A stretch of 64,000 bases of DNA from a bacterium (GCA_030697645.1 JAUYPI010000006.1:12017-76016); one strand, 5' to 3'. Positions 7,575 to 47,401 are shown, counted from the stretch's first letter. Numbers and translations are program-made. Notes: generated by a model not told the origin, from the sequence alone.

Positions 7575-7680
7575 TTAACGTTTAATTTTCAAGTCTCAAT
7601 TTCCAATTTTCAATCAATTTTCAATTACTCAATTTTCAAACACGACGTCGTTCGTTATTGAAAATTAGAAATTGAAAATT
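7575..7680. repeat. Family-1 AT-rich palindromic element (unit AATTTTCAAT), copy 1
   Basis: Tandem TTTTCAAT units, core CAAACACGACGTCG, inverted ATTGAAAATT units. Ends about 10 nt before the ATG at 7690. Confidence 0.8.
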
Positions 7681-7689
7681 GCACACGCT

Positions 7690-9625: not shown

Positions 9626-9636
9626 GGTCTTTTTAT

Positions 9637-9772
9637 TTAATTTTCAATGCTCAATTTTCAATCAATTTTCAATGACCCAATTTTCAAACACGACGTCGTA
9701 CCGGCGCCGTCATTAAGTCATTGAAACATTGAAAATTTATTGGAAATTGCAAAATTGAAAATTGAAAATTTC
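9637..9772. repeat. Family-1 palindromic element, copy 2
   Basis: Between rpmJ stop and rpsM ATG. Core CCCAATTTTCAAACACGACGTCG. Confidence 0.8.
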
Positions 9773-9777
9773 GTTCT

Positions 9778-26294: not shown

Positions 26295-26345
26295 TTGCGT
26301 CGTCTGTTTTCGTCTCTAAAAGCTAAAAGCTATCAGCTAACAGCT
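26295..26345. repeat. Family-2 palindromic element, copy c (short)
   Basis: CTCTAAAAGCTAAAAGCTATCAGCTAACAGCTT immediately upstream of the fusA ATG. Confidence 0.5.
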
Positions 26346-26351
26346 TGTACT

Positions 26352-34779: not shown

Positions 34780-34910
34780 TCAAATTTTCAATTTTACAAT
34801 TTCCAATCAATTTTCAATGTGTCAATGACTCAATGACGGGCGAAGTCGTGTTTGAAAATTGGGTCATTGAAAATTCACTGAAAATTGAAAATTGTAAATT
34901 GAAAATTTCG
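34780..34910. repeat. Family-1 palindromic element, copy 10 (core in inverse orientation)
   Basis: Core CAATGACGGGCGAAGTCGTGTTTGAAAATTGGG. About 40 nt upstream of the rpsJ ATG. Confidence 0.8.
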
Positions 34911-34949: not shown

Positions 34950-35318
34950 ATGGTTACTAAATCAACGGCTCCGCGTAAGCGCGCCGCGGCAGCGCGCAAA
35001 AAGGAGGAGGTTTCGCACAAGCTCCGCATTCGCATCCGCGCCTACGAGCACAAGATTCTTGACTCGTCCGTAAAGCAGGTCATGGACACCGCGCTTCGCT
35101 ACGATGCGCGGGTCGAGGGTCCGACGCCGCTTCCGGTTGAGATCAAAAAGTACACAGTCAACCGCTCATCGTTCGTGCACAAGAACGCGCGCGAGCAGTT
35201 CGAGATGCGCACGCACAAGCGCCTCATTGACATCCTCGACCCGGCGCCGAAGTTGATCGAAGCGCTTACGAATCTCACGTTGCCGTCGGGAGTGAATGTG
35301 GACGTGAAGATGATGTAA
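34950..35318 (+). CDS. rpsJ: Ribosomal protein S10 with basic N-terminal extension
   Basis: 122 aa. Canonical S10 core (IRIRAYEHKILDSSVKQVMDTA..., PLPVEIKKYTV). Confidence 0.9.
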   Translation: MVTKSTAPRKRAAAARKKEEVSHKLRIRIRAYEHKILDSSVKQVMDTALRYDARVEGPTPLPVEIKKYTVNRSSFVHKNAREQFEMRTHKRLIDILDPAPKLIEALTNLTLPSGVNVDVKMM

Positions 35319-35324
35319 AGGTTT

Positions 35325-35438
35325 GAGCTTTTAGCTTATAGCTGTTAGCTTTTAGGGGTTGTCGCGGCGTGCGCGAAGCACGCAATCGTTAGTCTGTCGT
35401 GCCTCTAAAAGCTATAAGCTAACAGCTAAGAGCTTTTT
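35325..35438. repeat. Family-2 palindromic element, copy d
   Basis: GAGCTTTTAGCTTATAGCTGTTAGCTTTTAGG - core with hairpin CGTGCGCGAAGCACG - CCTCTAAAAGCTATAAGCTAACAGCTAAGAGCTT. Confidence 0.6.
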
Positions 35439-35441
35439 TGT

Positions 35442-36059
35442 ATGAAATTCATTCTTGCCACCAAACAGCACATGACCCAGCTCTTCGACGAGGACGGGCG
35501 TGCATACCCGGCGACTCTACTTACCGCTGGGCCGGTTACCGTGACGCAGACGAAGAGCAAAGAGCGCGATGGCTACCGTGCGGTGCAGGTGGGTTTCGGG
35601 GCTCAGAAAGCGCAGCGGCTCTCGGCGCAGCAGCGCGGGCACCTCAAGGGGCTCGGAGCGTTTCGGACGCTCCGCGAATTTCGCTTAGCCGAGAGTGAGG
35701 CCGCGCTTGAGCGCGGCGCGATGCTCGACGTCTCGCAGTTTGCTCCGGGAGAGCGCGTGCGGGTCTCCGCTACATCGAAAGGCAAGGGCTTTCAGGGAGT
35801 GGTGAAGCGCCACGGATTCAAGGGCGGGCCGAGGAGCCACGGCCAGAAGCACTCGGAGCGCGAGCCGGGCTCGATCGGCGGCGGGGGGCGAGCCGGCGGC
35901 CGCGTCGTAAAAGGGATGCGCATGGCGGGCCGCATGGGCGGCGATCGCGTCACGGTGCGCGGTCTTCGGGTGCTCGCGGTGGACCCCGAAGCGCACGAGC
36001 TTCTCCTCCGCGGCGCGGTCCCCGGGAGGCGCGGAACGCTTGTTGAGGTGAGGGGATAG
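35442..36059 (+). CDS. rplC: Ribosomal protein L3
   Basis: 205 aa. Canonical L3 (GFKGGPRSHGQKHSERE, gly-rich loop). Confidence 0.9.
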   Translation: MKFILATKQHMTQLFDEDGRAYPATLLTAGPVTVTQTKSKERDGYRAVQVGFGAQKAQRLSAQQRGHLKGLGAFRTLREFRLAESEAALERGAMLDVSQFAPGERVRVSATSKGKGFQGVVKRHGFKGGPRSHGQKHSEREPGSIGGGGRAGGRVVKGMRMAGRMGGDRVTVRGLRVLAVDPEAHELLLRGAVPGRRGTLVEVRG

Positions 36060-36574
36060 AGGACTCTGCATGGATTTTTTCAAAATAAGGAGAGAAAATA
36101 TACCGCCGAGCACTATAGCATAATTGCTACATGGCTCGAGCGGATAGCGGTATTGCTTCTTGCTTCGCTTGTAGTCCAAAAAATTGTTTCCGGCAGCTCG
36201 TTTGTTGACACGAGCGTGGCAGGTGGGGTTTTATTGTCAGGGGTTGTGTACTACGCGGCGCTTTTATTTTTACAGAACTCGTAGTATAGTACTCGTATGG
36301 TCTCGCAACTTCTCATTTATATTGGGGGGGCGCTCATTGCGGTGATGTTTATTATTTTGGCGTATCCAATGGAGGGAAAACATGGGCATGGACGCAGTTG
36401 ATAAGTGTATACGAGAATGATATAAAGATTCATCCCCCGCCCGGAGGCGGGGGATCGTGTGAGGGGTGTGAGTAAGAGGCGTTGATGTCAGTTTGCCGCT
36501 TTTTTGGAAATCGAGCTTATCTCTGTCCAATAAAAATGACCATCACCCCTGGTGTAACGGCAAGTGGCGTAAGC

Positions 36575-36718
36575 ATTATATGCTGAAGAAAACACCTCGT
36601 GGGCAGTCGTACACAGTACCGTCTTTCAGTGTGATAGATGTTGGCTCCTTTCAGTCGGCGGTACATCCGACAACAAGTAACGCGAGCAATGCCGTAGCGA
36701 TACAAAACACTCTTTTCA
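36575..36718 (-). pseudogene. Small lipoprotein-like ORF interrupted by an in-frame TGA (possible pseudogene or read-through)
   Basis: GGAAGGG RBS, then ATG MKRVFCIATALLALLVVGC-TAD (lipobox LVVGC), TGA, then 24 more in-frame codons (KEPTSITLKDGTVYDCPRGVFFSI) before TAA. Confidence 0.25.
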
Positions 36719-36809
36719 TCGGTTTCCCTTCCATGTGATGCGAGTTATGTAGGCCAGTCTGGCTAGACCGACGTTTCGGGTTTCTACACGGAGAATTATA
36801 CAAAAATTT

Positions 36810-37475
36810 ATGCATGTCAAGTCTTATAGCCAAACAGGTGCAGAAGCGGGGACCATTGATCTTCCCGATGCCGTTTTTGCTCTGCCGTGGAACGCGGACC
36901 TCGTGCACCAGGTCGTGGTCGGCATGCAGGCGAATGCGCGCACGAATGTCGCGCACACCAAGGGTCGTGGCGAGGTGCGCGGCGGCGGGAAAAAACCCTG
37001 GAAGCAGAAGGGCACCGGCCGCGCGCGGCATGGCTCGATCCGCTCACCGCTCTGGAGGGGCGGTGGGGTGACGTTTGGTCCGACGAACGAGAAATCATAC
37101 ACACAGAAGATCAACCAGAAGATGCGCGTGAAAGCGCTGTTCACCGCGCTCTCGCAGAAGCTACGCGACGGCGAGATGCTTTTTGTGGACTCGCTCACGT
37201 TTCCCGCTCCGAAGACCGCCGACGCGAAGCGCACCGTGACGGCGCTTGCAGGTATTGAAGGGTTCGGGCGGCTCGCGACGAAGACCCGCAACACCGCCCT
37301 CCTTGCGCTCGCCCGTCGCGACGAGGCGGTCGAAAAAAGTTTCCGCAACTTCGGCAACATCAGTACGGTTGAAGCCCGCAACTTGAATCCGGTAGAGGCG
37401 TTGAAATATAAATATATAATCTTTACCGAACCGAGTGAGGTGTGTAAGATACTTGCCGAGCGACAGCGGCAGTAA
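36810..37475 (+). CDS. rplD: Ribosomal protein L4
   Basis: 221 aa. Canonical L4 (KPWKQKGTGRARHGSIRSPLWRGGGVTFGP). Confidence 0.9.
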   Translation: MHVKSYSQTGAEAGTIDLPDAVFALPWNADLVHQVVVGMQANARTNVAHTKGRGEVRGGGKKPWKQKGTGRARHGSIRSPLWRGGGVTFGPTNEKSYTQKINQKMRVKALFTALSQKLRDGEMLFVDSLTFPAPKTADAKRTVTALAGIEGFGRLATKTRNTALLALARRDEAVEKSFRNFGNISTVEARNLNPVEALKYKYIIFTEPSEVCKILAERQRQ

Positions 37476-37478
37476 GAG

Positions 37479-37614
37479 AATAATTTCCAATTTTCAATTT
37501 TGCAATTTTCAATCAATTTTCAATTATCTAATTTTCAAACACGAACGTCGCCGTGATTGAGTCATTGAAACATTGAAAATTTATTGAAAATTGAGCATTG
37601 AAAATTGAAAATTT
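37479..37614. repeat. Family-1 palindromic element, copy 11
   Basis: Starts 3 nt after rplD stop. Ends 5 nt before the rplW ATG. Confidence 0.8.
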
Positions 37615-37619
37615 CACCT

Positions 37620-38027
37620 ATGGCTTTCTTCCGCAAAAAAATACAGACATCCGAGATACCCGCGACCGCAGCGGCGCGTGACGATGCGCCACAGCACGCC
37701 CCCGGTGTTTCGGAGCACAAGCGCGCTAGTGCGCCTCGGCTCGCCTCACGTCGGTCTCTCTCCGACGTCCTCATCCGCCCCCGCATTACCGAAAAAGGCA
37801 CGATTGTCTCCGCGCACCGAGCGTACGCCTTCAACGTCGCGCCGTGGGCGAACAAGTACGAGATTGCCGCGGCGGTCCGCGCGACGTATAAGGTGACGCC
37901 AGAGAAGGTCACGGTTGCTCGCATTCCCGCAAAGGCGCGTTTCGTGCGTGGCAAATGGGGTACGAAAGTCGGAGGGAAGAAAGCGTATATTTTCCTCAAA
38001 CAGGGAGAGAAGATAGAGTTTGTCTAA
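37620..38027 (+). CDS. rplW: Ribosomal protein L23 with N-terminal extension
   Basis: ORF track 37605 (TTG in the repeat). ATG at 37620. C-terminal L23 core (LIRPRITEKG..., YIFLKQGEKIEF). Confidence 0.85.
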   Translation: MAFFRKKIQTSEIPATAAARDDAPQHAPGVSEHKRASAPRLASRRSLSDVLIRPRITEKGTIVSAHRAYAFNVAPWANKYEIAAAVRATYKVTPEKVTVARIPAKARFVRGKWGTKVGGKKAYIFLKQGEKIEFV

Positions 38028-38034
38028 TTTTACA

Positions 38035-38125
38035 TTTGACATTTGACGTTCGATCCTTGCAGGGACATCCGTCGTGGTCAAATGTTAATTGTCAAAGGTC
38101 AAATGTTGGTATTGGTTGAACTTCG
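38035..38125. repeat. Family-4 palindromic element (unit ACATTTGAC)
   Basis: ACATTTGACATTTGACG - GC-rich core TTCGATCCTTGCAGGGACATCCGTCG - TGGTCAAATGTTAATTGTCAAAGGTCAAATGT. Confidence 0.45.
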
Positions 38126-38157: not shown

Positions 38158-39003
38158 ATGAAAAGTTATCGTCCCACCACCCCATCCCGCCGCGCCATGT
38201 CGGTCGTGTCATATAAAAATACGCTGACCACCGCGCGGCCGCTGAAGCCGCTCGTCCGCGGCGGCAAGCGCCACGTTGGCCGAAATAAGGATGGCCGCAT
38301 CACCGTGCGCCACAAAGGCGGCGGCCATAAGCGGCGTTTTCGCGCGGTGGATTTTAGCTACGATAAGCATGACATCCCGGCGCGGATCGAGCACCTTGAA
38401 TACGACCCGAACCGCTCCGGCTTCATTGCGCGCCTCCTCTATGCGGACGGCGAGCGGCGCTATATCCTCGCGCCGCAGCGCGCAGCAGTGGGGGATAGCG
38501 TGCTTATCTCCGAGAGCGCGTCGGTTGTGACAGGAAACAGACTGCCGCTCGGAAAAATTCCTGTCGGCGCGTTTGTCCACGCGATCGAGCTCAAGCCCGG
38601 GGGCGGCGCGCGCCTCGCGCGGTCTGCCGGAAACTACGCGGAAGTGGTTGCGCAGGAGGGCGGCTACACGCACCTCAAGATGCCTTCGACTGAAATACGA
38701 AAGGTGCTCGGGGGCGCATGGGCTTCAATTGGTGAAGTCTCGAATTCCGAGCACCGTCAGAGAGTGTTCGGCAAGGCGGGCCGTTCGCGATGGCTCGGGA
38801 TTAGGCCCACCGTGCGCGGCAGTGCGATGAACCCAGTTGACCATCCGCACGGCGGCGGCGAGGGCCGCTCCGGCCGCGGCCGACGCCGTGCGGTCTCCGC
38901 GTGGGGAAAGCCCACCGGCAAGGGCCACAAGACCCGCCGTGCGAAGAAATACTCAAACGCCCACATCATCTCGCGTCGTCGTGTTGGCAAGAAACGTGGA
39001 TGA
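38158..39003 (+). CDS. rplB: Ribosomal protein L2
   Basis: 281 aa. Canonical L2 (GRNKDGRITVRHKGGGHKR, HPHGGGEGR). Confidence 0.95.
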   Translation: MKSYRPTTPSRRAMSVVSYKNTLTTARPLKPLVRGGKRHVGRNKDGRITVRHKGGGHKRRFRAVDFSYDKHDIPARIEHLEYDPNRSGFIARLLYADGERRYILAPQRAAVGDSVLISESASVVTGNRLPLGKIPVGAFVHAIELKPGGGARLARSAGNYAEVVAQEGGYTHLKMPSTEIRKVLGGAWASIGEVSNSEHRQRVFGKAGRSRWLGIRPTVRGSAMNPVDHPHGGGEGRSGRGRRRAVSAWGKPTGKGHKTRRAKKYSNAHIISRRRVGKKRG

Positions 39004-39090
39004 CGTGTTTAGAAAGTGGAAGGTGGAAAGTGGAGAGTAGACAGCGGCAACCAAAAACGAAAACCCACTTTCTACTCTCCCGTATGTTGT

Positions 39091-39534
39091 ATGGAACATC
39101 AAACAATCGCGGTGAAGGCGATGTGTCTTTTTGAACACGAAGGTAAGGTGCTGCTCTGCCGCGGCTACGATAAAGTCAAGGACGAGCACTTTTACCGGGT
39201 ACCGGGCGGGCACGTTGAGTTTGGGGAGCGGGCGGAGGAGGCGGTACGACGCGAGATTATAGAGGAGCTCGACTCGGAGATAGAGGATCTTGTGTTCGAG
39301 CGCGTTGTTGAAAACATTTTTGAATACCAAGGGGCGCCCGGACACGAAATCGTTTTCATGTATACCGGCCGCCTCGCGAACTCCGTGCTCCACACAAAAG
39401 ATGTGATTTCCTACGCCGAACATGACGGCTCTCAACACGAGGCAGTGTGGATTCCTGCGGCGGACATCCTCTCTGGCGCTGCACGCACCTATCCGACGTG
39501 CGATTATCGTTCCCCTTTGACGCAAGGAATTTAA
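39091..39534 (+). CDS. NUDIX hydrolase
   Basis: Nudix box GGHVEFGERAEEAVRREIIEELD. ORF track start 39016. ATG at 39091 fits domain length. Confidence 0.7.
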   Translation: MEHQTIAVKAMCLFEHEGKVLLCRGYDKVKDEHFYRVPGGHVEFGERAEEAVRREIIEELDSEIEDLVFERVVENIFEYQGAPGHEIVFMYTGRLANSVLHTKDVISYAEHDGSQHEAVWIPAADILSGAARTYPTCDYRSPLTQGI

Positions 39535-40261
39535 TAAAAAGTGTTGGAAAAATATCGCGCGATTACGCTTTTTTTGTTGAGGCATATCTTTGTCTGATCG
39601 AACCAGGACGCGCACCACTCGGAAGTTTTGTTTTCTACCCCTTGTTTTTTGGTCCACTTTTTTGCAATAGCAATGCGACCGCTTTGTTATTGCAAATTCT
39701 TTAGACAGTAGACACGGTACCCCTATGCTGTACGTGAGACCCGCCCTGACAGAGTGTCGGGGCGGGTTCGGTGCAGGACACCTCCTTCCTGCTAAACCGC
39801 GTGGTGTCCGCGAGAGCGAAGACTGCGACAGAATAACTGATTTACGATAATTTACAATCGTGAATTATTGTAAATCGTATCTATGTGTCACGGCGGGTAC
39901 ATACACGGCAGTACTTGTGTAGGGTAAAGCACGCGTCGTCACGTCGTTGCGTCACGTCGTCACTATTGACGTTCTTTATTTTTTGATTGCTGGTGGGACC
40001 GAGGGCGTTCGCTCTCATCGTGTCCTTTATGTAGATACGCTAAAGGACATTGCGGTGTGTCCGATAGAAATCAATCAAAAAAGACGTAAAATTGTATGCA
40101 CGCAAACCTGACATAAAATAGGCTCGAATGTCCTTTAGAACATGCCTTTCCACCAAACAAAAAATGTTTTCTAACGATGAAAAACGCGGGTTTCTTCATT
40201 GACAGCGGTGTCTGGCTCATTAGAGTGTGGTTACTTTCGGATTGCGTCCGCTCCGTAACCT

Positions 40262-42628
40262 ATGACACAGGTAATGACCCAGTACCATCCGATTCTTCGC
40301 GCAGCATTACTTGCAGCTAGCGTGGCAGTCCTCGTGTTCGCCATGGGCTTTGCGCTGATACCGCTTGCGGCATCAGCGAATAACGGTGGCATCGTATTTC
40401 CGTCCTGCCCAATTCAGGCTGCAGAAAATCGCATCGTTGTCGCGCTCGATCCCAGTCAATTTCTCTATGGCGCGGGAAGCGAGAGTGGGCCGTTTTTGGT
40501 CAATATCCCGTCCGGTACCTACGACATTACGCTCGCGTCATTCGATAACCATTCGCAGAAAGGGGGACAGGGGCAGGAATCAGAGCGCTGGCAGCTCAAG
40601 CTCCTCGATTCCTCCGGAGTCCTTCTCGGCGTGACTGCGTTGATAAACGACCTCGCTGATGCTGACGATGTTCTTGTCGAGAAAGTGAATGAGGGGTTTA
40701 TGATTTCGGCGGACGTTGCGAAACTGCGTCCGTTCCATCCAGACGAAGGGAATAGCATCCGCCCGCTCTGCGCCGCGTTTGATCTTGTTTCGGCCGGGAC
40801 AGGGACTGATACTGGTGGCGGGACAGCCACGAATACTGCTACGACTACCACGACTATTGTTGTTACGAGTACCTCGAGCAGCACCGAGAGCAGCGCAAGC
40901 GCTGTTAATAATACTAGCACCGCTGGCGGCAGCAGCTCTGCGAGCTGTGGGGGCTGTGGGGGTATCGGCGGTGGCGGCGTCACGGTTACGCCACTCGTGG
41001 TGAGCGAAGAGCAGGCACAGTGGATAGGGAATGTTATCGTCGTTACGTGGAAGACAAATATACCGGCGACGAGCCGTGTTTATTATGGTACACAGAGCGT
41101 CGAGCCGCTGCTCCTCGACGAGCACCTGGGCTACGCGACGGGAACCATGCTCGCGACGACAACCGTGACCGAGCACACCGTGGAGATTTTAGAAGCAGAC
41201 CCAACCAAGACATACTATCTCCGTCCCGCCTCACAGGAGACGCCGGAGCAGAATTTTCGTATCACTGGTAAAGAATTGAGCCTTTTGCCCCCTGTGTCTA
41301 CTGGGCCCACCGTGGCTCCGGTTGGTGCAGGTAGCGCGACAGGGGTCGAGGCCGCCACTCTGACGAGAGTGCTTATTGAGCGGAGTGGAGCGTCACGCAC
41401 CTGTAGCGCGTATCTCACGAGCTTCATACGCCCGGGCGCGACGAACAACTACGCGGATGTGGCCAAGCTCCAACTTTTCCTCTGGCAGTATGAGGGATTT
41501 AGCGACCTCAGGATTACCGGCGTCTACGATGAGTCTACCCGCCGAGCGGTTGAGACATTTCAGATACGGTATGCAGCTGACGTACTCATTCCTTGGGGTC
41601 TGACCTCGCCGACGGGGCATGTCTATCTCACGACGCAAAAAAAGATTAACGAACTCTATTGCAGCCGCGCACTGGGCATCAAAGCTACCTTTGGACTCTC
41701 GACGGCAGCAGATGAGGAAATACAGGCCTACCGAGCTGCCCTTCAGGCGGAGCGCAGACGGCAGGGCTCGCCAACGTGGGAGCCTGCGGAGCCGCGCGTC
41801 GGGCGTGGAGAGACGCAGGGAGCTATCGGAATTTCTCGTGAACCCGCACCGGAGGAGACGAACCAAGATAAGGTCACGCAAGTTGCCCCAGCCAGAGAGA
41901 GCCGTGTGCCGCTCGTCGTGGAAGATGGCGAGGACTCTCAGGATGGCGAGACGACGAGCCCACGACCGAGTCCTTTTGACGGCGCGGCGCTCATCGTCGA
42001 GGAAATCGGTGACAAATTCGCGACCGCGACGCGAAACGGCCTTATCGGTGCCCTCTTTGCCGGATTTTCTGGCCCGTCGGCACCGACGTTTCTTGGCATC
42101 CTCTCACTTGTCCTTTTGGTTGTCGGCGCCCTGATGCTGGCTCGTTCACTCCGATCCGGCGGGCCGAACGATCCTAATCGAAAGAACACACCGCCTCCGC
42201 CCCCGCCCTTCAGTGGTTCTGGCGGTGGTCTGTCCCAGCCGCGCACTTCTTCCTCGTCCTTTGGGGAGGAACGTGGCAAGGCAACGATGCCACCGCCCCC
42301 GGTTCAAGTGCGCACCTCCGGCTCGCCGATCACTTCAGGTAGCCCATCCGCTTCGGTGTTCGAGATGCCGCCAGCAAGCGGCGTTCGGGATACCGCTCGC
42401 GTCCCTGGCTGGGGGGCCGGCCCGCAGCCTGTCGCCTCACTGCTTCGTGGGAGTGTCGGCGAGACCCTGCGCTCGCCCGTCGTCGGCCCAATTGCTTCTT
42501 CAGTGGACAAGACGGATAAGACGGCGCACACTGAAACCGTCCCGTTCCTTTCGCCTCAACCAGTTGCACGCGCCATCTCGTCAACATCTGCTTCGGCGCC
42601 GAGCAGCCGCCCACAGCCGCCGCGGTAG
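40262..42628 (+). CDS. Large cell-surface protein: signal/TM, Thr/Ser/Gly-rich low-complexity region, peptidoglycan-binding-like domain, C-terminal TM anchor, Pro-rich tail
   Basis: 788 aa. PG_binding_1-like segment DVAKLQLFLWQYEGFSDLRITGVYDESTRRAVETFQIRY. TM FLGILSLVLLVVGALML near residue 620. Candidate TTGACA-16-TAGAGT promoter at about 40199-40230. Confidence 0.55.
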   Translation: MTQVMTQYHPILRAALLAASVAVLVFAMGFALIPLAASANNGGIVFPSCPIQAAENRIVVALDPSQFLYGAGSESGPFLVNIPSGTYDITLASFDNHSQKGGQGQESERWQLKLLDSSGVLLGVTALINDLADADDVLVEKVNEGFMISADVAKLRPFHPDEGNSIRPLCAAFDLVSAGTGTDTGGGTATNTATTTTTIVVTSTSSSTESSASAVNNTSTAGGSSSASCGGCGGIGGGGVTVTPLVVSEEQAQWIGNVIVVTWKTNIPATSRVYYGTQSVEPLLLDEHLGYATGTMLATTTVTEHTVEILEADPTKTYYLRPASQETPEQNFRITGKELSLLPPVSTGPTVAPVGAGSATGVEAATLTRVLIERSGASRTCSAYLTSFIRPGATNNYADVAKLQLFLWQYEGFSDLRITGVYDESTRRAVETFQIRYAADVLIPWGLTSPTGHVYLTTQKKINELYCSRALGIKATFGLSTAADEEIQAYRAALQAERRRQGSPTWEPAEPRVGRGETQGAIGISREPAPEETNQDKVTQVAPARESRVPLVVEDGEDSQDGETTSPRPSPFDGAALIVEEIGDKFATATRNGLIGALFAGFSGPSAPTFLGILSLVLLVVGALMLARSLRSGGPNDPNRKNTPPPPPPFSGSGGGLSQPRTSSSSFGEERGKATMPPPPVQVRTSGSPITSGSPSASVFEMPPASGVRDTARVPGWGAGPQPVASLLRGSVGETLRSPVVGPIASSVDKTDKTAHTETVPFLSPQPVARAISSTSASAPSSRPQPPR

Positions 42629-42934
42629 CATGCACGGAAACTCCGGAGGCTCTTCACGCGGGTTTATCCATACGAAAAAAGACGACGCCACTCGGGAATG
42701 CCGAGTGGCGTTTGAGCTGTCTTTCACATTTCTCACGCTGTATGACTTCCACACGGAAGTCGCGGAGAACTGTTAACACATTACCCGTAATGATCCGGAC
42801 ACCCGGATCGGGATGCGTTTGAGCGATTGGGGCCCAGGCTTGCGCCTGTAGAACTTACAGCGCGAAGGAGACCTGCGGATAACTTGTTCAGCACTCAGTG
42901 TTCAACACGTGTTTGGCGCGTTGCGCGGTCTGTC

Positions 42935-44446
42935 CTAGTCGTCCACAGCGGTTGCGACGAGCGCTCCGTTCGCTGTTGCGTCTACGGGCGAGGACTTTTT
43001 TGTACCATTTGTGCCGCGACTTGTGCCACGACGGATGTCAGTGCACTCCGTGCACTCATTGAGATGCTCGAGGATGCGCTCCGTCGTCGCTTTCTTCATC
43101 CTGCCGCAGGGCATGGTGGAAATGAACTGCTTCTTGCCACTGATCAAACCGGGGGCTTTCGAAAATGCAGCGGTGTGGCCCCAGACTGCACGGAGGGCTC
43201 TGTGGTCCTCAGGAATGTCGACGAGGACGGAGACACAAGAGCGTTGGTTGTTCTCCTCTTGGAGAGCGCTGATTAACTCTCGGCTTTCATCGCGGGCGGC
43301 TTTGACCGCAGCCTCGAGTCCATCTTCAGCCTCGTTGAGCTCACCTACCAGCTCGGCTACTCTCTGCACAAACTCCTCTCTTTCCGCTGATAGTCTCGCC
43401 GCAACCCTGCTGCGGCGTCGTGCGTACCATAAACATAAAATAGTACCAACGAGCACAAACACAGCCAGCACGATCACCAACTCATGCTCGACTCGTGTCT
43501 GTTTCACTCGCGTCGCATCAAGGGTACTTTGGAGCTCCTCTTGCTCAGCAATAGCCTTCTTAATCGCGTCCTCTATCTCTTTTTTCAGCCCATCGATTTC
43601 TCCTTGTAATGTCGTGATATTCTTTGCCTGGGAGACGACTTGGTCTGCACGCTGAGTAGCCAGGTCCACGTAAGCATCATGGGCTGCCATAAGCGCCTCA
43701 AGATGCTCCGCGTAAGAAGCCTGGTTTATGCCGATGGCCTCTTTGAGATTGATGATGCTTGCCTCCGATTCAGCTAACGCCCGGCGCGTCTCCTCGAGCT
43801 CGTCCCGGCGGGCACTGTGGTCTCGGCCCATGTTTTGGAGCTCTGTCTTGAGATCAGCAGCCTTTTGCTCAGCAGTGGTACGTGCCATGTATTCCGTGCT
43901 GAGCTCCGTTGTGAGTTCAAGCACCTTGGCGAGTGTTGCGGGTGTGTCGGCGAGCGTGCCTCCACCATCGAGAACCGTAGGCAGGTTGATCGTGTAGTCC
44001 GCGCAGATCGTATTGAGATCAGTGATCTGTGGATTTTTCCTCCGCAGTGCAGAGAAATACTGCGCCCCGGTCATTGCTCCGCTGTAGTCTTGCTTAAAAC
44101 CAGACACGGTGTCACCGCGAGTAATGGTGCGCGGTTTCCAGATGTTGGGAACGCCGGCGATCACTTCTGTACGCATCTCATCCGTGAGCGGTGGGGCATT
44201 GCGCGCGCCACCACAGGACACGCGATTGGCGGTACTGTCGCCGTTCTCGATGCGTGCGGGGTTCGCTTGTACGAGCGTTCTTGAGATTACGCTTGGTTGA
44301 GGCACCCTAGTCTCAAACACCCGCGTGGCCACCTCCTCATCAAGAAATGCCACTGTCTGCGTTTGCGCCGCGATATGCGGCACTGCCACCATGAGAGTGA
44401 ATCCGAGGACCGCCATCACCGCTAGCATACTTTTCGCACTTTCCAT
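42935..44446 (-). CDS. Bitopic membrane protein: signal peptide, LysM-like domain, coiled coil, TM, cytoplasmic coiled coil plus C-terminal Cys4 zinc-ribbon
   Basis: LysM-like ITRGDTVSGFKQDYSGAMTGAQYFSALRRKNPQITDLNTICADYTINLP. TM VIVLAVFVLVGTILCLWY. C-terminal CGR...CTECTD. Start MESAKSM at 44446 (ORF track 44524). Confidence 0.5.
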   Translation of the reverse strand: MESAKSMLAVMAVLGFTLMVAVPHIAAQTQTVAFLDEEVATRVFETRVPQPSVISRTLVQANPARIENGDSTANRVSCGGARNAPPLTDEMRTEVIAGVPNIWKPRTITRGDTVSGFKQDYSGAMTGAQYFSALRRKNPQITDLNTICADYTINLPTVLDGGGTLADTPATLAKVLELTTELSTEYMARTTAEQKAADLKTELQNMGRDHSARRDELEETRRALAESEASIINLKEAIGINQASYAEHLEALMAAHDAYVDLATQRADQVVSQAKNITTLQGEIDGLKKEIEDAIKKAIAEQEELQSTLDATRVKQTRVEHELVIVLAVFVLVGTILCLWYARRRSRVAARLSAEREEFVQRVAELVGELNEAEDGLEAAVKAARDESRELISALQEENNQRSCVSVLVDIPEDHRALRAVWGHTAAFSKAPGLISGKKQFISTMPCGRMKKATTERILEHLNECTECTDIRRGTSRGTNGTKKSSPVDATANGALVATAVDD

Positions 44447-44739
44447 CGTCTCCCCTCCTCGTTTTGTTGGGAACGCATGTCGCGTTCGTTGTTTTCGCCC
44501 CGTTTCGATTAAATCAAGGAACAACCCGGGGCTTCTTCGACCCGTCCATGCCCGGTCTATGCACGATATTTCCGAGGTGCACCTTACATCCTTCTAGACC
44601 GTATGTCAAGTGACAAGACTGCAGTAATTATGGTATCCATATTTTGGTTCCGGTGTCACAGTGAAATGATTGTTGCGCCGGTTGTTCATTGAGAGTTTGG
44701 TTGTATACGTAACTCGGACACTTCACAGGGAGACAGATT

Positions 44740-45216
44740 ATGCAAATTCGTCACACGATCGTTGTACTCTCGCTCTACGGCGCTCTCGGTGCTCTTGCTA
44801 TCTCGAGCGCCTCTGCCGGCGAGCAGGGGCCATTCGGTGCCTTCAAAAGCCGTATCCGGCCTGATGCAAGCGAGCATGTGGTGCGGCAAGGGTATCTCGT
44901 GCTTGAGGAAAAAAATCGCCGAGGCGGTTTTGGTCCTGCGGAGGTCAATGTCCAGCAAAACCACTGGGGAGCCAATAATACGTGGAACGACAATCGCGGT
45001 TCCGCGATGAGTTCGAGCACTGTGGTGGGCAACCTCGACAGTATGAGCGTGAGTGGCACCGGGGACGGCTTCATACTCGAAGTTGTTGATGGAGCAACGA
45101 CCCAGGGGAATAAGGATGTCCAGCAGGAAAGCGGCGTGACGACATCAGTTGGCGGTGATGCGTCTGGCACGCAGAGTCAGCAGCGGGCAGGCGCGCACGA
45201 CAAGAAATGGAAATGA
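44740..45216 (+). CDS. Small secreted protein (signal peptide)
   Basis: 158 aa. Cleavable signal LSLYGALGALAISSASA. AGGGAGA RBS. Confidence 0.45.
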   Translation: MQIRHTIVVLSLYGALGALAISSASAGEQGPFGAFKSRIRPDASEHVVRQGYLVLEEKNRRGGFGPAEVNVQQNHWGANNTWNDNRGSAMSSSTVVGNLDSMSVSGTGDGFILEVVDGATTQGNKDVQQESGVTTSVGGDASGTQSQQRAGAHDKKWK

Positions 45217-45237
45217 CGGCTTTGGGAAGGAGACGAC

Positions 45238-46854
45238 GTGAATAGAACTCCGTGCCTCTTAGGGGTTTGGATGTTACTTTTCTTCGCGGGCTGCTCGGCC
45301 GTCGCACCGTTTTCGGAGGAGCTCGCGAAAGTGCAGGGCCCGCCGGTGCGGCCTTTGGTCGCAGGTAATGAGGTACCACAGGCAACCGCAGAGAATCCGA
45401 CGCCAGCAAACGATTGGAAGCCGCGCGATTCGATAGTGGCGGGGCTTCTCTGTCTCAGTAAAAAGTTTGAAGGGCTTTACGCGAGTGGTGTGCCCCAATC
45501 AATTTTTACTGTGGGTGACATTGCCGACAACACACATACGGTCAAATACACAGAGGAGGGAACGGGTAAATTTCTTGCGAGCTCTCTCAACCGTGTCGTC
45601 GCAGACGCCGTGAAGTTTGCAGGCGTTGCATACCGTAACTGGCTCGACCTCTCGCTCGTGCGACAGCAATATGAATTCGCGCAGCGCGGATTGTTGCGGG
45701 ATTCCTACGCCATCGTCGCTGACGAACAAGGGCGGAAGAAGGCAGTCCACCAAGGCGGTCGGCCGGTCGCACAGTTTGAGCCGGTCGACTATTTTTTCTC
45801 CGGCGGGATCGAGATGATTAATTTCAGTGGCGGCGCGTATATTGAAGCAGGGGTTGCGGCATCGACGGCGGGTTACCAACAGTACCGCTTCGATTTTTAT
45901 TCAACGCTCGAGCTGGTACGCGCGAGCGACGGCGCTCCCGTTGGATTTATCCCGCAGATTAAGGAGGTAGTTGCTGAGGAGGTTCGTGCCGGATTTGCGC
46001 GATTTTTCGGCATTTGGCTGCCCATCGTGAGCGCGGGCTATAAGCGCCACGAGAGTCTCGTTGAGGTGCAGCGCGTGGTCTTCTACTACGGCGTCTATGT
46101 GTTGCTCTCGCGCGGTTATTCCATTACGGGCTGTGACCAGTTGCTTGACCCACATGTCGTCGCGTTGCTTGGGCCGACGGATCGTGTCACGATTGCACCG
46201 ATTCGGTTGGATGATGGTTCGCCCGGACCCGGTAGTATCCAGGTTTCGAAGCGAATCAACAAAGCGGATGCCGTCGTCACCACACCTGCCGTCGCTACAA
46301 AATCCGTACCACCTGATCAAAATGCTGTTCTCGTCCGATACGGGGCCGAGATTGCGGCGCTTGATCTTCGCGTCGCGAGCCTCGAGCACACGCGCGCGCC
46401 GATCGTCACCTCCGCGGAGGAAGCCGCCGCGACCCTTGCGGTTCGCGGCGCACGGACGATCGACATCCCCGTGCCGTTTCTTGAGGGGAAGGGAGACTGT
46501 TGCGGCGCGATCCAGCTCAAACAGGTGCTGATCGCACGAGTCTTAGTCCAGGGCGGTCTCTACGAGGTGACGGGGGCGACGAGTTTTGTCTGTCCAAAGA
46601 AGGCCTCGGAGGGGTTGCGCGGGCGGTTGCTCAAAGGTCGTCTCGACGTCGTTGTTGCGGCGCTTGCGAGCGACAAGATTCCGAGTAAGCCAGTTGTCGT
46701 CCTTGAGTCAGGCGGCGGCGTGGACTCTCTACGGAATGGCCGCAGGTTAGGTACCCCCGCCCAGCATGACGCGCTCTACCAGAGCGCCGAGTGGCACGAT
46801 AAAGGGGTGACATTTATCCACCTCAAACGAAAGGAGGCCGTGGCGAAACAATAA
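45238..46854 (+). CDS. Large lipoprotein (lipobox FFAGC), GTG start with AAGGAGA RBS
   Basis: 538 aa. MNRTPCLLGVWMLLFFAGCSAV lipoprotein signal. Confidence 0.55.
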   Translation: MNRTPCLLGVWMLLFFAGCSAVAPFSEELAKVQGPPVRPLVAGNEVPQATAENPTPANDWKPRDSIVAGLLCLSKKFEGLYASGVPQSIFTVGDIADNTHTVKYTEEGTGKFLASSLNRVVADAVKFAGVAYRNWLDLSLVRQQYEFAQRGLLRDSYAIVADEQGRKKAVHQGGRPVAQFEPVDYFFSGGIEMINFSGGAYIEAGVAASTAGYQQYRFDFYSTLELVRASDGAPVGFIPQIKEVVAEEVRAGFARFFGIWLPIVSAGYKRHESLVEVQRVVFYYGVYVLLSRGYSITGCDQLLDPHVVALLGPTDRVTIAPIRLDDGSPGPGSIQVSKRINKADAVVTTPAVATKSVPPDQNAVLVRYGAEIAALDLRVASLEHTRAPIVTSAEEAAATLAVRGARTIDIPVPFLEGKGDCCGAIQLKQVLIARVLVQGGLYEVTGATSFVCPKKASEGLRGRLLKGRLDVVVAALASDKIPSKPVVVLESGGGVDSLRNGRRLGTPAQHDALYQSAEWHDKGVTFIHLKRKEAVAKQ

Positions 46855-46930
46855 GTCGGAGCAATACGCAAGGTAATTGGTTGGTAGGGAGTTAGATCAG
46901 GAAAACAGTTTTCATGGCAAGGAGTTGGTT

Positions 46931-47365
46931 ATGTTTAGGAAGATGTTTGTTGCGGTGGCAGTTGTGACGCTGGTGTTTGGTGTATTCGGGACGAGTGTGA
47001 TCGTGTTTGCGGACGACGATTGGGACGGCCTCAACTTGTCGGACATCGTTGAGACCATCGTCGACGGGGCTGGGGGCCCAACCAGCGTTGTCATAAACAC
47101 TCACTCAGAGCAGCTCGGCGAGATTTATATCCGCGAAGGCGATTTTGAGGACATCACGACCTCCAATGTCGTTTTCGGAGCCTTGCTGCTGCAGGCTCTT
47201 GATTGTGACGGTTGTCCGGAGGCCGGCTCGAGCCTAGTTTTTAACGGCTGGAGCAAGCAGAGCGCGCTCACCGTGATTGAGCACGCATCGACCGGGGCGA
47301 TCGACGTCAGCAGTGTCGTGGCAGGGGCGGCAAAAATTGTTACCGTCCCAACTCCATCACCGTAA
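46931..47365 (+). CDS. Small secreted protein
   Basis: ATG at 46931 with AAGGAG RBS. Signal peptide MFRKMFVAVAVVTLVFGVFGTSVIVFA. Confidence 0.45.
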   Translation: MFRKMFVAVAVVTLVFGVFGTSVIVFADDDWDGLNLSDIVETIVDGAGGPTSVVINTHSEQLGEIYIREGDFEDITTSNVVFGALLLQALDCDGCPEAGSSLVFNGWSKQSALTVIEHASTGAIDVSSVVAGAAKIVTVPTPSP

Positions 47366-47401
47366 CGATGGTCAAGGGCTAAGCGCGATCCTAGCGCATA
47401 T

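What the first reader, a model, noticed from the sequence alone, without database searches (positions are those of the whole stretch)
36060..36809. 750-bp low-GC insertion between rplC and rplD with a lipoprotein signal ORF interrupted by in-frame TGA
L3 and L4 genes are normally adjacent. Here a lower-GC segment separates them. It carries a strong GC hairpin (CCCCCGCCCGGAGGCGGGGG at about 36430-36456) and a minus-strand ORF with a good RBS (GGAAGGG) and a classic lipoprotein signal (MKRVFCIATALLALLVVGC). That ORF hits TGA after 22 codons but continues in frame for 24 more codons. Explanations are a fresh pseudogene, a programmed read-through or selenocysteine, or a 22-aa signal-peptide-only micropeptide. 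A hydrophobic 50-codon frame without ATG on the plus strand (about 36100-36270) is also present.
Basis: seen in the sequence. Interest (0 to 1): 0.5.

Follow-up and report, generated by a model that had tools for sequence, protein, structure and literature searches.

The report
Decaying small-gene cassette between rplC and rplD
The TGA-interrupted lipoprotein ORF is a recently broken copy of a small lipoprotein gene that close relatives carry intact at the same place, so this is ordinary gene decay and not stop-codon recoding, although the cassette it belongs to is an undescribed set of tiny membrane-protein genes.

Summary
Exactly 750 bp (36060-36809, 46% GC) separate rplC and rplD. The GC hairpin, the lipobox ORF stopped by TGA after 22 codons, and the ATG-less hydrophobic plus-strand frame are all present.

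The recoding interpretations are not supported. Relatives with 85-90% identical L3 carry the same cassette:
- a 69-73-aa two-helix membrane protein (ORF-A) starting 11 nt after rplC
- one or two ~30-aa single-helix peptides (ORF-B)
- the same GC hairpin
- a convergent 72-86-aa lipoprotein gene

Every ORF-A and every complete lipoprotein gene recovered from relatives is intact.

In the window:
- The TGA aligns with an invariant Trp codon (TGG to TGA).
- A second lesion, a 1-nt frameshift, lies about 55 nt downstream in the same gene.
- ORF-A has lost one A of an A-run, which separates its ATG from its body.
- The second ORF-B copy is missing.
- TGA is a normal stop here. rplB ends in TGA where the nearest relative has TAA.

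The cassette is therefore a fresh, multiply hit pseudogene cassette.

Two further results. ORF-A plus ORF-B form an unannotated module that elsewhere sits beside coupling-protein (T4CP-like) and primase-type zinc-finger genes on mobile-element-like contigs. A homologous antisense lipoprotein gene also lies between rplC and rplD in a distant relative.

The parts
35442..36059 (+). rplC (ribosomal protein L3, 205 aa, stop TAG); left border of the cassette
   Evidence: ORF. Called as PF00297 on the identical contigs. 7825 L3 homologues found.
36070..36123 (+). ORF-A, 5' part. ATG is 11 nt after the rplC stop and AGGA lies 7 nt upstream. Codons 1-9 (MDFFKIRRE) are homologous to the orthologue in L089 (MDFRIQRE). 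After a 1-nt deletion in the A-run 36095-36098 this frame ends at TAA 36121-36123.
   Evidence: Orthologues start with ATG 11 nt after rplC.
36099..36284 (+). ORF-A body (61 codons plus TAG), now in the -1 frame relative to its ATG. It is a two-helix membrane hairpin, YTAEHYSIIATWLERIAVLLLASLVVQKIVSGSSFVDTSVAGGVLLSGVVYYAALLFLQNS.
   Evidence: Orthologues of 69-73 aa are intact in L083-L088, L091, L092, L093 and L089. 36 family members found by exhaustive phmmer. AlphaFold2 helical hairpin, pLDDT 90. dN/dS 0.16 between L083 and L093.
36297..36401 (+). ORF-B: intact 34-aa single-helix peptide MVSQLLIYIGGALIAVMFIILAYPMEGKHGHGRS.
   Evidence: Homologous ~30-aa peptides follow every ORF-A homologue examined except the one on L101, whose contig ends 60 nt after ORF-A. 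dN/dS 0.05 between L083 and L093.
36432..36455 (-). GC-rich hairpin (10-bp stem). Terminator-like only on the minus strand, with tail GAATCTTTAT. The stem sequence is invariant in the window, L083, L086 and L093.
36488..36719 (-). Lipoprotein pseudogene. Signal peptide and lipobox (LLVVGC) occupy 36719-36663. The TGA at 36653-36651 replaces the invariant Trp codon. A 1-nt insertion relative to both orthologues lies near 36585-36605. The C-terminal 35 codons continue in another frame down to the TGA at 36490-36488.
36720..36760 (-). Conserved 5' leader and ribosome-binding site of the lipoprotein gene (CTCGCATCACATGGAAGGGAAACCG ATG).
   Evidence: Conserved block in the DNA alignment of the window, L083 and L086. 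No sigma-70-type promoter was called.
36810..37475 (+). rplD (ribosomal protein L4, 221 aa); right border of the cassette

Best explanation
The 750 bp hold a lineage-specific cassette of very small envelope-protein genes lodged inside the S10 ribosomal-protein operon of a small clade of Paceibacteria-like Patescibacteria. In this genome the cassette is decaying.

In its intact form, seen in relatives, the cassette has two parts:
- On the operon strand, directly after rplC: a 69-73-aa two-helix membrane protein (ORF-A) followed by one or two ~30-aa single-helix peptides (ORF-B).
- On the opposite strand: a 72-86-aa lipoprotein gene with its own leader, ending at a GC hairpin that looks like a terminator for that strand only.

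In the window the lipoprotein gene carries a TGG-to-TGA nonsense change at the invariant Trp just after the lipobox, plus a 1-nt frameshift. ORF-A has lost one A of an A-run. The second ORF-B copy is absent. Only the 34-codon ORF-B remains intact. The TGA is a plain stop codon in a young pseudogene.

Shown here: orthology, the lesions, purifying selection in relatives, and the use of TGA as a stop.

Inferred:
- Co-transcription and translational coupling of ORF-A and ORF-B with rplC.
- The hairpin stops antisense transcripts but lets operon transcription continue into rplD.
- The ORF-A/ORF-B module came from a mobile element.
For: Orthologous cassettes:
- Loci whose L3 is 85-90% identical to the window's carry the same cassette.
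- In a DNA alignment the whole spacer is colinear, including the hairpin.

Lipoprotein gene:
- W23 is invariant in the relatives, and the window's TGA sits on that column.
- The N-terminal half is homologous in one frame and the C-terminal half (TCRYTRGDGHFYWTEISSISKK against TCYYDRGSGDFLWKEIKSISRK) in another.

ORF-A:
- The ATG and the first codons MDF match L089.
- GAA AAG TTC ACT in L089 corresponds to GAA AA- TAT ACC in the window.

Selection:
- Between L083 and L093, dN/dS is 0.16 for ORF-A and 0.05 for ORF-B.
- Between the window and the relatives, pN is 0.29-0.38 and pS is 0.56-0.83. The window copies were therefore under constraint for most of their history.

Stop-codon use:
- rplB stops at TGA at the residue where the closest relative has TAA.
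- 13 of 44 long plus-strand ORFs end in TGA.

Sequence reliability: identical sequence in three assemblies.

Terminator: the hairpin is terminator-like on the minus strand only. L025 has a different hairpin with a T-run in the same role.
Against: - All three assemblies may draw on the same or related read sets, so a shared assembly error is not formally excluded.
- The conserved residues of both broken genes are almost all retained. The lesions must be very recent, or some product is still made.
- Around the ORF-A lesion there is a U_UUU_UUC heptamer in the right register and a window-specific stable stem-loop (z = -4.7). This leaves a small chance of frameshift rescue of ORF-A.
- An in-frame CTG at 36066 could in principle start a near-full-length ORF-A.
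- No expression data exist.
Confidence: 0.8

Rival explanations
1. The lesions are sequencing or assembly errors, or a minority-strain consensus, and the genes are intact in the organism.
For: Two of the three lesions lie in or next to short homopolymer runs: A4 at 36095-36098 and T4 near 36600 on the minus strand. The source is a metagenome assembly. The NCBI contig becomes chimeric 74 nt before its end.
Against: The window, the NCBI MAG contig and the Logan contig (seen in 2 samples) agree base for base over the whole cassette. Three independent errors within 650 bp would be needed, while the flanking ribosomal genes are clean. The TGA is a substitution and is not in a homopolymer.
Confidence: 0.07
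2. ORF-A is still made by programmed -1 ribosomal frameshifting, at U_UUU_UUC (36075-36081) or at A_AAU (36096-36099), helped by the stem-loop at 36099-36146, or by initiation at the in-frame CTG at 36066.
For: The heptamer is in X_XXY_YYZ register of the ATG frame, and a -1 shift is exactly what is needed. The zero frame ends soon after, at TAA 36121. The downstream stem-loop (-22.5 kcal/mol, z = -4.7, 0 of 200 shuffles as stable) is absent from four orthologues. The ORF-A body keeps all family-invariant residues.
Against: The spacing from slip site to stem is 17-21 nt for the heptamer and 0-3 nt for A_AAU, against the usual 5-9 nt (my own knowledge of -1 frameshift sites). All relatives have uninterrupted ORFs. 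The neighbouring gene has two lesions and ORF-B2 is lost, which fits general decay. By my rough estimate an in-register heptamer in nine codons occurs by chance a few percent of the time.
Confidence: 0.07
3. The TGA is decoded: as Trp by near-cognate suppression or a reassigned code, or as selenocysteine. The lipoprotein is therefore still produced.
For: The TGA lies exactly on a conserved Trp position, as it would if UGA were read as Trp.
Against: - TGG to TGA is also the expected one-step nonsense mutation of Trp.
- TGA ends rplB at the orthologous stop position.
- EF-Tu, S10, L3, L4, L23 and L2 have no in-frame TGA.
- The RNA downstream is less structured than shuffles, so there is no SECIS-like element.
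- Sec normally aligns with Cys, not Trp.
- A frameshift about 55 nt downstream would still truncate the protein.
- ARAGORN finds no tRNA gene of any kind in the window.
Confidence: 0.03
4. The 22-aa signal-peptide-only product, or the region as a non-coding RNA, is the functional entity.
For: The ribosome-binding site and leader of the lipoprotein gene are conserved. The hairpin stem and the adjacent CGTGTGAGGGG are invariant across lineages.
Against: Relatives encode full-length proteins under purifying selection. Rfam finds nothing in 36060-36809 at E <= 1. Conservation of the leader is expected for a gene that was functional until recently.
Confidence: 0.02

Closest known systems
Ordinary bacterial pseudogenes (nonsense plus frameshift decay of accessory genes)
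   Same: A one-step TGG-to-TGA change at a conserved Trp. One-nucleotide indels. Intact orthologues in sister lineages. Several lesions within one functional unit.
   Different: The decaying unit sits inside the S10 ribosomal operon, between rplC and rplD, which are adjacent or nearly so in almost all bacteria (79 relatives checked).
YgdI/YgdR (DUF903) small lipoproteins
   Same: About 72-86 aa, a lipobox signal peptide, and a short mature domain beginning with a hydrophobic-x-T-x-DG-like strand. NCBIfam NF033216 gives its best scores to the relatives' proteins (E = 2.8e-4 and 7.5e-4).
   Different: Scores are 15-21 bits against a cutoff of 42, and they cover mainly the signal peptide. The mature part has three conserved Cys and an invariant Trp. 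A profile search of the PDB gave no hit with E below 0.1 and listed no YgdI/YgdR entry. It is not a demonstrable member.
VirB2/PrgF-like T4SS pilins and other small two-helix membrane proteins of conjugative elements
   Same: ORF-A is a 60-80-aa helical hairpin. Outside the ribosomal locus it lies next to TrwB/TraG-type coupling-protein homologues and CHC2 zinc-finger genes. Patescibacteria carry many orphan T4CP genes and tandem arrays of small pilin-like genes (PMC12102498).
   Different: None of 32 family members matches Pfam TrbC/VirB2 or T4SS_pilin at E <= 1. There is no signal peptide. Foldseek against the PDB gives only generic hairpins with E > 1. The tandem ~30-aa ORF-B peptides have no counterpart in described T4SS.
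Holins and type I toxin-like small hydrophobic peptides
   Same: The size and topology of ORF-A (two helices) and of ORF-B (one helix with a basic C-terminus). One homologue lies in a toxin-antitoxin island. There are sporadic weak holin hits: PF16080 at E = 0.02 and phrog_198 at E = 8.5e-4, each for only 1-2 of 32 members.
   Different: No consistent family match. ORF-A lacks the charged C-terminal tail typical of holins. No homologue was found in the two pattern-based IMG/VR scans. No endolysin neighbour and no antisense RNA evidence.

Membership tests
Selenoprotein gene (bacterial UGA-Sec recoding) | The in-frame UGA aligns with Cys or Sec in homologues | tested here: not met
   It aligns with an invariant Trp (TGG) in P0122, P0123, P0124 and the L025 protein.
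Selenoprotein gene (bacterial UGA-Sec recoding) | SECIS stem-loop immediately 3' of the UGA | tested here: not met
   The 81 nt around and after the TGA fold at -14 kcal/mol, weaker than shuffles (z = +1.4; 187 of 200 shuffles fold at least as well).
Selenoprotein gene (bacterial UGA-Sec recoding) | selA, selB, selD and tRNA-Sec present in the genome | not testable with these tools
   Only 64 kb of the genome is available. ARAGORN finds no tRNA of any kind in the window.
Reassigned genetic code (table 4 or 25, UGA as sense) | UGA is not used as a stop and occurs in frame in conserved genes | tested here: not met
   rplB ends with TGA at residue 281, where the 92%-identical orthologue has TAA. 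tuf, rpsJ, rplC, rplD, rplW and rplB are uninterrupted under table 11.
Bacterial lipoprotein (SPase II substrate) | Basic n-region, hydrophobic core, and lipobox [LVI][ASTVI][GAS]C | tested here: met
   Read directly from the sequence: MKR-VFCIATALLALL-VVG-C. The same layout is present in all orthologues. No dedicated predictor was run.
YgdI/YgdR (DUF903) lipoprotein family | Score at or above the curated cutoff of NCBIfam NF033216 (42 bits), or a Pfam DUF903 hit | tested here: not met
   14.9 bits for the repaired window protein, and 20.7 and 19.4 bits for P0122 and P0123. No Pfam hit.
Programmed -1 ribosomal frameshift site (dnaX type) | X_XXY_YYZ heptamer in register, a stimulatory structure 5-9 nt downstream, and conservation in homologues | tested here: inconclusive
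   The heptamer U_UUU_UUC is present in register at 36075-36081, and a stable stem-loop lies at 36099-36146 (z = -4.7). The spacing is 17-21 nt, and neither element exists in the orthologues.
VirB2/TrbC or T4SS_pilin | Match to PF04956 or PF18895 | tested here: not met
   No such hit at E <= 1 for any of the 32 ORF-A family members. The fold search is non-specific.
Intrinsic (Rho-independent) terminator | GC-rich stem-loop followed by a T-run on the transcribed strand | tested here: met
   Met on the minus strand only: a 10-bp stem with 8 G-C pairs and tail GAATCTTTAT. There is no T-run on the plus strand. Function was not tested.

The most novel reading that the evidence does not exclude
The cassette combines two things that do not seem to be described.

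(1) A small-protein module made of a ~65-80-aa two-helix membrane protein followed by one to three tandem ~30-aa single-helix peptides. It belongs to plasmid- or ICE-like elements of uncultured bacteria, next to T4CP-like ATPases, CHC2 primase-type zinc fingers, a RepO-like HTH protein and toxin-antitoxin genes. It could be a membrane conduit or anchor for the orphan coupling proteins, or a membrane-active toxin/immunity pair. One copy became fixed directly behind rplC, where it is driven by the ribosomal operon.

(2) A small lipoprotein gene that has sat antisense between rplC and rplD since before the divergence of lineages whose L3 is only 58% identical. Its expression would then be inversely coupled to ribosomal-operon transcription by convergent transcription, with a one-way terminator protecting rplC.
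Probability: 0.2. Interest if true: 0.55.

Novelty: new member of a known kind. Interest (0 to 1): 0.3.

Why it matters
For the finding as posed, the result is a caution. An in-frame TGA in a Patescibacteria small ORF is plain gene decay here, not recoding. Comparison with the nearest relatives settles this without reads.

The by-products could matter more. ORF-A and ORF-B form a conserved, unannotated family pair of very small membrane proteins. ORF-A has 36 clusters among 1.84 billion representative proteins and no Pfam, NCBIfam, PHROG or PADLOC family. Elsewhere the pair travels with coupling-protein and primase-like genes, so it is a concrete candidate for the unknown membrane partners of the many orphan T4CPs of Patescibacteria.

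A protein-coding gene kept antisense inside the S10 operon in two distant lineages is an unusual arrangement. It could be tested for transcriptional interference.

Tried and rejected
- Word-indexed protein search with the repaired lipoprotein found nothing. With the lipoprotein alignment it returned only the two known orthologues.
- Pfam, NCBIfam, PHROGs and PADLOC gave no family above threshold for the lipoprotein, ORF-A or ORF-B. Not every library was run on every protein.
- PDB profile searches gave nothing for ORF-A. For the lipoprotein they gave only non-significant Sushi-domain-like matches with E > 0.1.
- The AlphaFold2 model of ORF-A is a confident helical hairpin. Foldseek against the PDB returned only generic hairpins with E > 1.
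- Rfam at E <= 1 found nothing inside 36060-36809. The microRNA-like hits in the other spacers merely reflect long AT-rich hairpins.
- The insert DNA has no other copy in the window or in the 80 related loci, so it is not a repeat or a MITE.
- Viral-contig scans with two ORF-A sub-alignments found no relatives. The full alignment was too divergent to build a search pattern.
- Three of the seven metagenome hits to the ORF-A pattern (L097-L099) were spurious.
- My first guess, that the ORF-A frameshift lay in the T6 run, was rejected once L089 showed that the first nine codons are homologous in the ATG frame. The deletion is in the A-run.
- No T4CP or zinc-ribbon homologue exists in the window.
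- Two literature searches found no description of this arrangement.

Full report
**1. Observation**

rplC (35442-36059) and rplD (36810-37475) are separated by exactly 750 nt.
- The spacer GC is 0.464, against 0.675 and 0.593 for the two genes. It lies in the lowest 4% of 750-nt windows of the 64-kb window.
- The GC hairpin is at 36432-36455.
- The minus-strand ORF starts at 36719 behind GGAAGGGAAACCG and reads MKRVFCIATALLALLVVGCTAD. It then has TGA (36653-36651), 24 further in-frame codons, and TAA (36578-36576).
- The plus-strand hydrophobic frame is open from 36060 to 36281.
- In 79 of the 80 related genomes fetched, the rplC-rplD distance is -4 to 388 nt. Much of the longer distances is Lys/Glu-rich extension of L3 or L4.
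- The 750 bp are identical in an NCBI MAG contig (GCA_034376905.1) and in a Logan contig of SRR26726066 that was seen in two samples.

**2. The same locus in close relatives**

The organism is a Paceibacteria/Kaiserbacteria-like member of the Patescibacteria. The best L3 identity among species representatives is 60-67%.

A search of 5.8 billion proteins found L3 proteins 85-90% identical to the window's. Their contigs (L083-L089, L091, L092) and a metagenome scan (L093, L096) show the same cassette between rplC and rplD:
- (i) An ATG 11 nt after the rplC stop opens a 69-73-aa ORF (ORF-A), for example MNTHKEPRFSQKHYELIAKWIERVALLLFAALVVQNIVAGASLTEPTILGGIALSVLTYALALYFLQKS.
- (ii) Then comes a ~30-aa ORF (ORF-B, MSSTILIYLGGFAIALMFLIVTRLAERKHQ). 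A second copy is intact in L093 and broken in L083.
- (iii) The same hairpin, CATCCCCCGCCnGGAGGCGGGGGA, follows.
- (iv) On the minus strand there is an intact lipoprotein gene of 72 aa (L083) or 86 aa (L086).

The whole spacer aligns colinearly with the window.

**3. What is wrong in the window**

*Lipoprotein gene.* The TGA lies on the column of an invariant Trp. Compare CTT-W-EDPATITL, CAV-W-DEPASITL and the window's CTAD-*-KEPTSITL. At the DNA level GCC GAC TGA AAG corresponds to GCC GTC TGG GAC.
- The N-terminal half is homologous in the ATG frame.
- The C-terminal half (SSAYNAYATCRYTRGDGHFYWTEISSISKK against EFSCRNSITCYYDRGSGDFLWKEIKSISRK) is in another frame (36595-36488).
- The DNA alignment places one extra nucleotide in the window near 36585-36605.

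*ORF-A.* The ATG at 36070 and its first codons (MDFFKIRRE) match L089 (MDFRIQRE). GAA AAG TTC ACT in L089 corresponds to GAA AA- TAT ACC in the window. One A of the run at 36095-36098 is therefore missing. The ATG frame stops at TAA 36121, and the 61-codon body continues in the -1 frame.

*ORF-B.* The second ORF-B copy is absent. ORF-B at 36297-36401 is intact.

*Selection.* Between L083 and L093, dN/dS is 0.16 for ORF-A and 0.05 for ORF-B. Between the window and the relatives, pN is 0.29-0.38 and pS is 0.56-0.83 for all three genes. These are real genes under purifying selection, and the window's lesions are recent.

**4. Recoding excluded**

- TGA is a stop here. rplB ends in TGA at residue 281, exactly where the 92%-identical orthologue has TAA.
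- The conserved genes have no in-frame TGA.
- The RNA after the TGA is less structured than shuffled sequence (z = +1.4).
- The aligned residue is Trp, not Cys.
- Read-through would in any case run into the frameshift.

**5. Anatomy and likely working of the intact cassette (inferred)**

ORF-A starts 11 nt after rplC, with AGGA upstream, in all lineages. This suggests co-transcription and translational coupling with rplC.

The hairpin has a T-rich tail only on the minus strand. It probably ends the lipoprotein transcript without stopping operon transcription toward rplD.

L025 is a distant relative (L3 58% identical). Its 388-nt rplC-rplD gap holds only a homologous 87-aa lipoprotein gene, in the same antisense orientation, with a different hairpin followed by a T-run. 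The hhalign probability is 95% with E = 2.5e-8, and BLASTP of the mature parts gives 3e-8.

The antisense lipoprotein is therefore found in a lineage that lacks ORF-A and ORF-B. Either it predates the ORF-A/ORF-B insertion, or L025 lost those genes.

**6. The ORF-A/ORF-B module elsewhere**

Exhaustive phmmer with the window's ORF-A body found 36 representatives at E <= 1e-3. Nearly all are 53-110 aa and align over nearly the whole query (alignment A4). None belongs to a Pfam, NCBIfam, PHROG, PADLOC or PDB family. AlphaFold2 gives a confident helical hairpin with pLDDT 90, and the fold search is non-specific.

Five contexts outside the ribosomal locus were read:

| Locus | Neighbouring genes | Tandem ~30-aa peptides after ORF-A |
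|---|---|---|
| L100 | PIN and PemK toxin-antitoxin genes | 2 |
| L102 | TrwB/TraG-D-type coupling-protein homologue, CHC2 zinc finger | 2 |
| L104 | two coupling-protein homologues, CHC2 zinc finger | 3 |
| L103 | HTH_36/RepO-like protein | 1 |
| L101 | no mobile-element gene seen; the contig ends 60 nt after ORF-A | not assessable |

In the four contexts that extend far enough, the peptides have the ORF-B pattern Mxxx[LI]x[IVP][YFH]xGGxxIxxM...R[KH].

The module is therefore a unit associated with mobile-element-like contigs. Its cassette copy also has low GC3 (0.45-0.50 against 0.72-0.78 for rplC and rplD). No copy was found in IMG/VR.

A published survey reports thousands of orphan T4CP genes and tandem arrays of small pilin-like genes in Patescibacteria (PMC12102498). 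ORF-A does not match the pilin models.

**7. Residual oddities**

- A U_UUU_UUC heptamer lies at 36075-36081, in register with the ATG frame. A window-specific stem-loop lies at 36099-36146 (-22.5 kcal/mol, z = -4.7) and is absent from four orthologues. They flank the ORF-A lesion, and a -1 shift is what would rescue the frame. The spacing is non-canonical and the relatives need no shift. I rate rescue at about 7%.
- The ORF-A body now shares the rplC frame, directly after the TAG. I take this as chance.
- CGTGTGAGGGG next to the hairpin is invariant across lineages.

**8. Verdict**

The finding is a fresh, multiply hit pseudogene cassette. Interest in the recoding hypothesis drops to near zero. 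Moderate interest remains in the undescribed ORF-A/ORF-B small-protein module and in the antisense lipoprotein gene nested in the S10 operon.

Noticed in passing
window 7583-7681, 9636-9773, 10173-10310, 10755-10888, 11547-11673, 14173-14286, 14767-14894, 15500-15639, 34783-34907, 37482-37621: A family of ~125-nt AT-rich palindromic elements (AATTTTCAATTTTnCAATTT ... AAATTGAAAATT). Copies are 75-91% identical, occur in both orientations, and fill many intergenic spacers, including tuf-rpsJ and rplD-rplW. The more distant relative L090 has one in its 115-nt rplC-rplD spacer. They look like MITE/REP-type elements or processing hairpins. Rfam only gives chance microRNA-like hits.
   Followed up: partly
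window 35317-35436 and 38028-38096: Two further long intergenic inverted repeats of other sequence types lie in rpsJ-rplC (AGCTTTTAGCTTATAGCTGTTAGC...) and rplW-rplB. The rpsJ-rplC type has partial copies at 17598-17628 and 26314-26346. Every spacer of this S10 cluster except rplC-rplD carries a long hairpin.
   Followed up: partly
window 39003-47400: The S10 cluster stops after rplB. The next gene is a NUDIX hydrolase (39016-39534; PF00293, E = 7e-14). It is followed by large secreted or membrane-anchored proteins with no family assigned. rpsS, rplV and rpsC do not follow, which is unusual for this normally conserved gene order.
   Followed up: partly
L086 against L083 (JGI Ga0114944_1021175 and Ga0114945_10000988): The two contigs are 100% identical from rpsJ to the GC hairpin. 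Identity then drops to 41-72% across the lipoprotein gene and 81-84% in the start of rplD. This is either a recombination breakpoint at the hairpin, giving divergent lipoprotein alleles, or a chimeric assembly.
   Followed up: partly
L083 3930-4020, L093 about 990-1095: A second ORF-B paralogue lies between ORF-B and the hairpin. It is intact in L093 (MNAQILPFIGGLLIILMFWIVTRLAGRQQQQYQ), interrupted in L083 and L086 (MSAQFFA*), and deleted in the window. This shows independent decay of cassette parts in different lineages.
   Followed up: yes
window 36099-36146: A stable stem-loop (-22.5 kcal/mol, z = -4.7) inside the ORF-A coding sequence is specific to the window and is not formed by the four orthologous sequences. 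A U_UUU_UUC heptamer lies 17 nt upstream.
   Followed up: partly
L081 4579-4652 (NCBI JAXMIX010000133.1, contig end): The last 74 nt of the NCBI MAG contig diverge from the window inside rplD and encode a different L4 variant. This is probably a chimeric contig end from a related strain.
   Followed up: no
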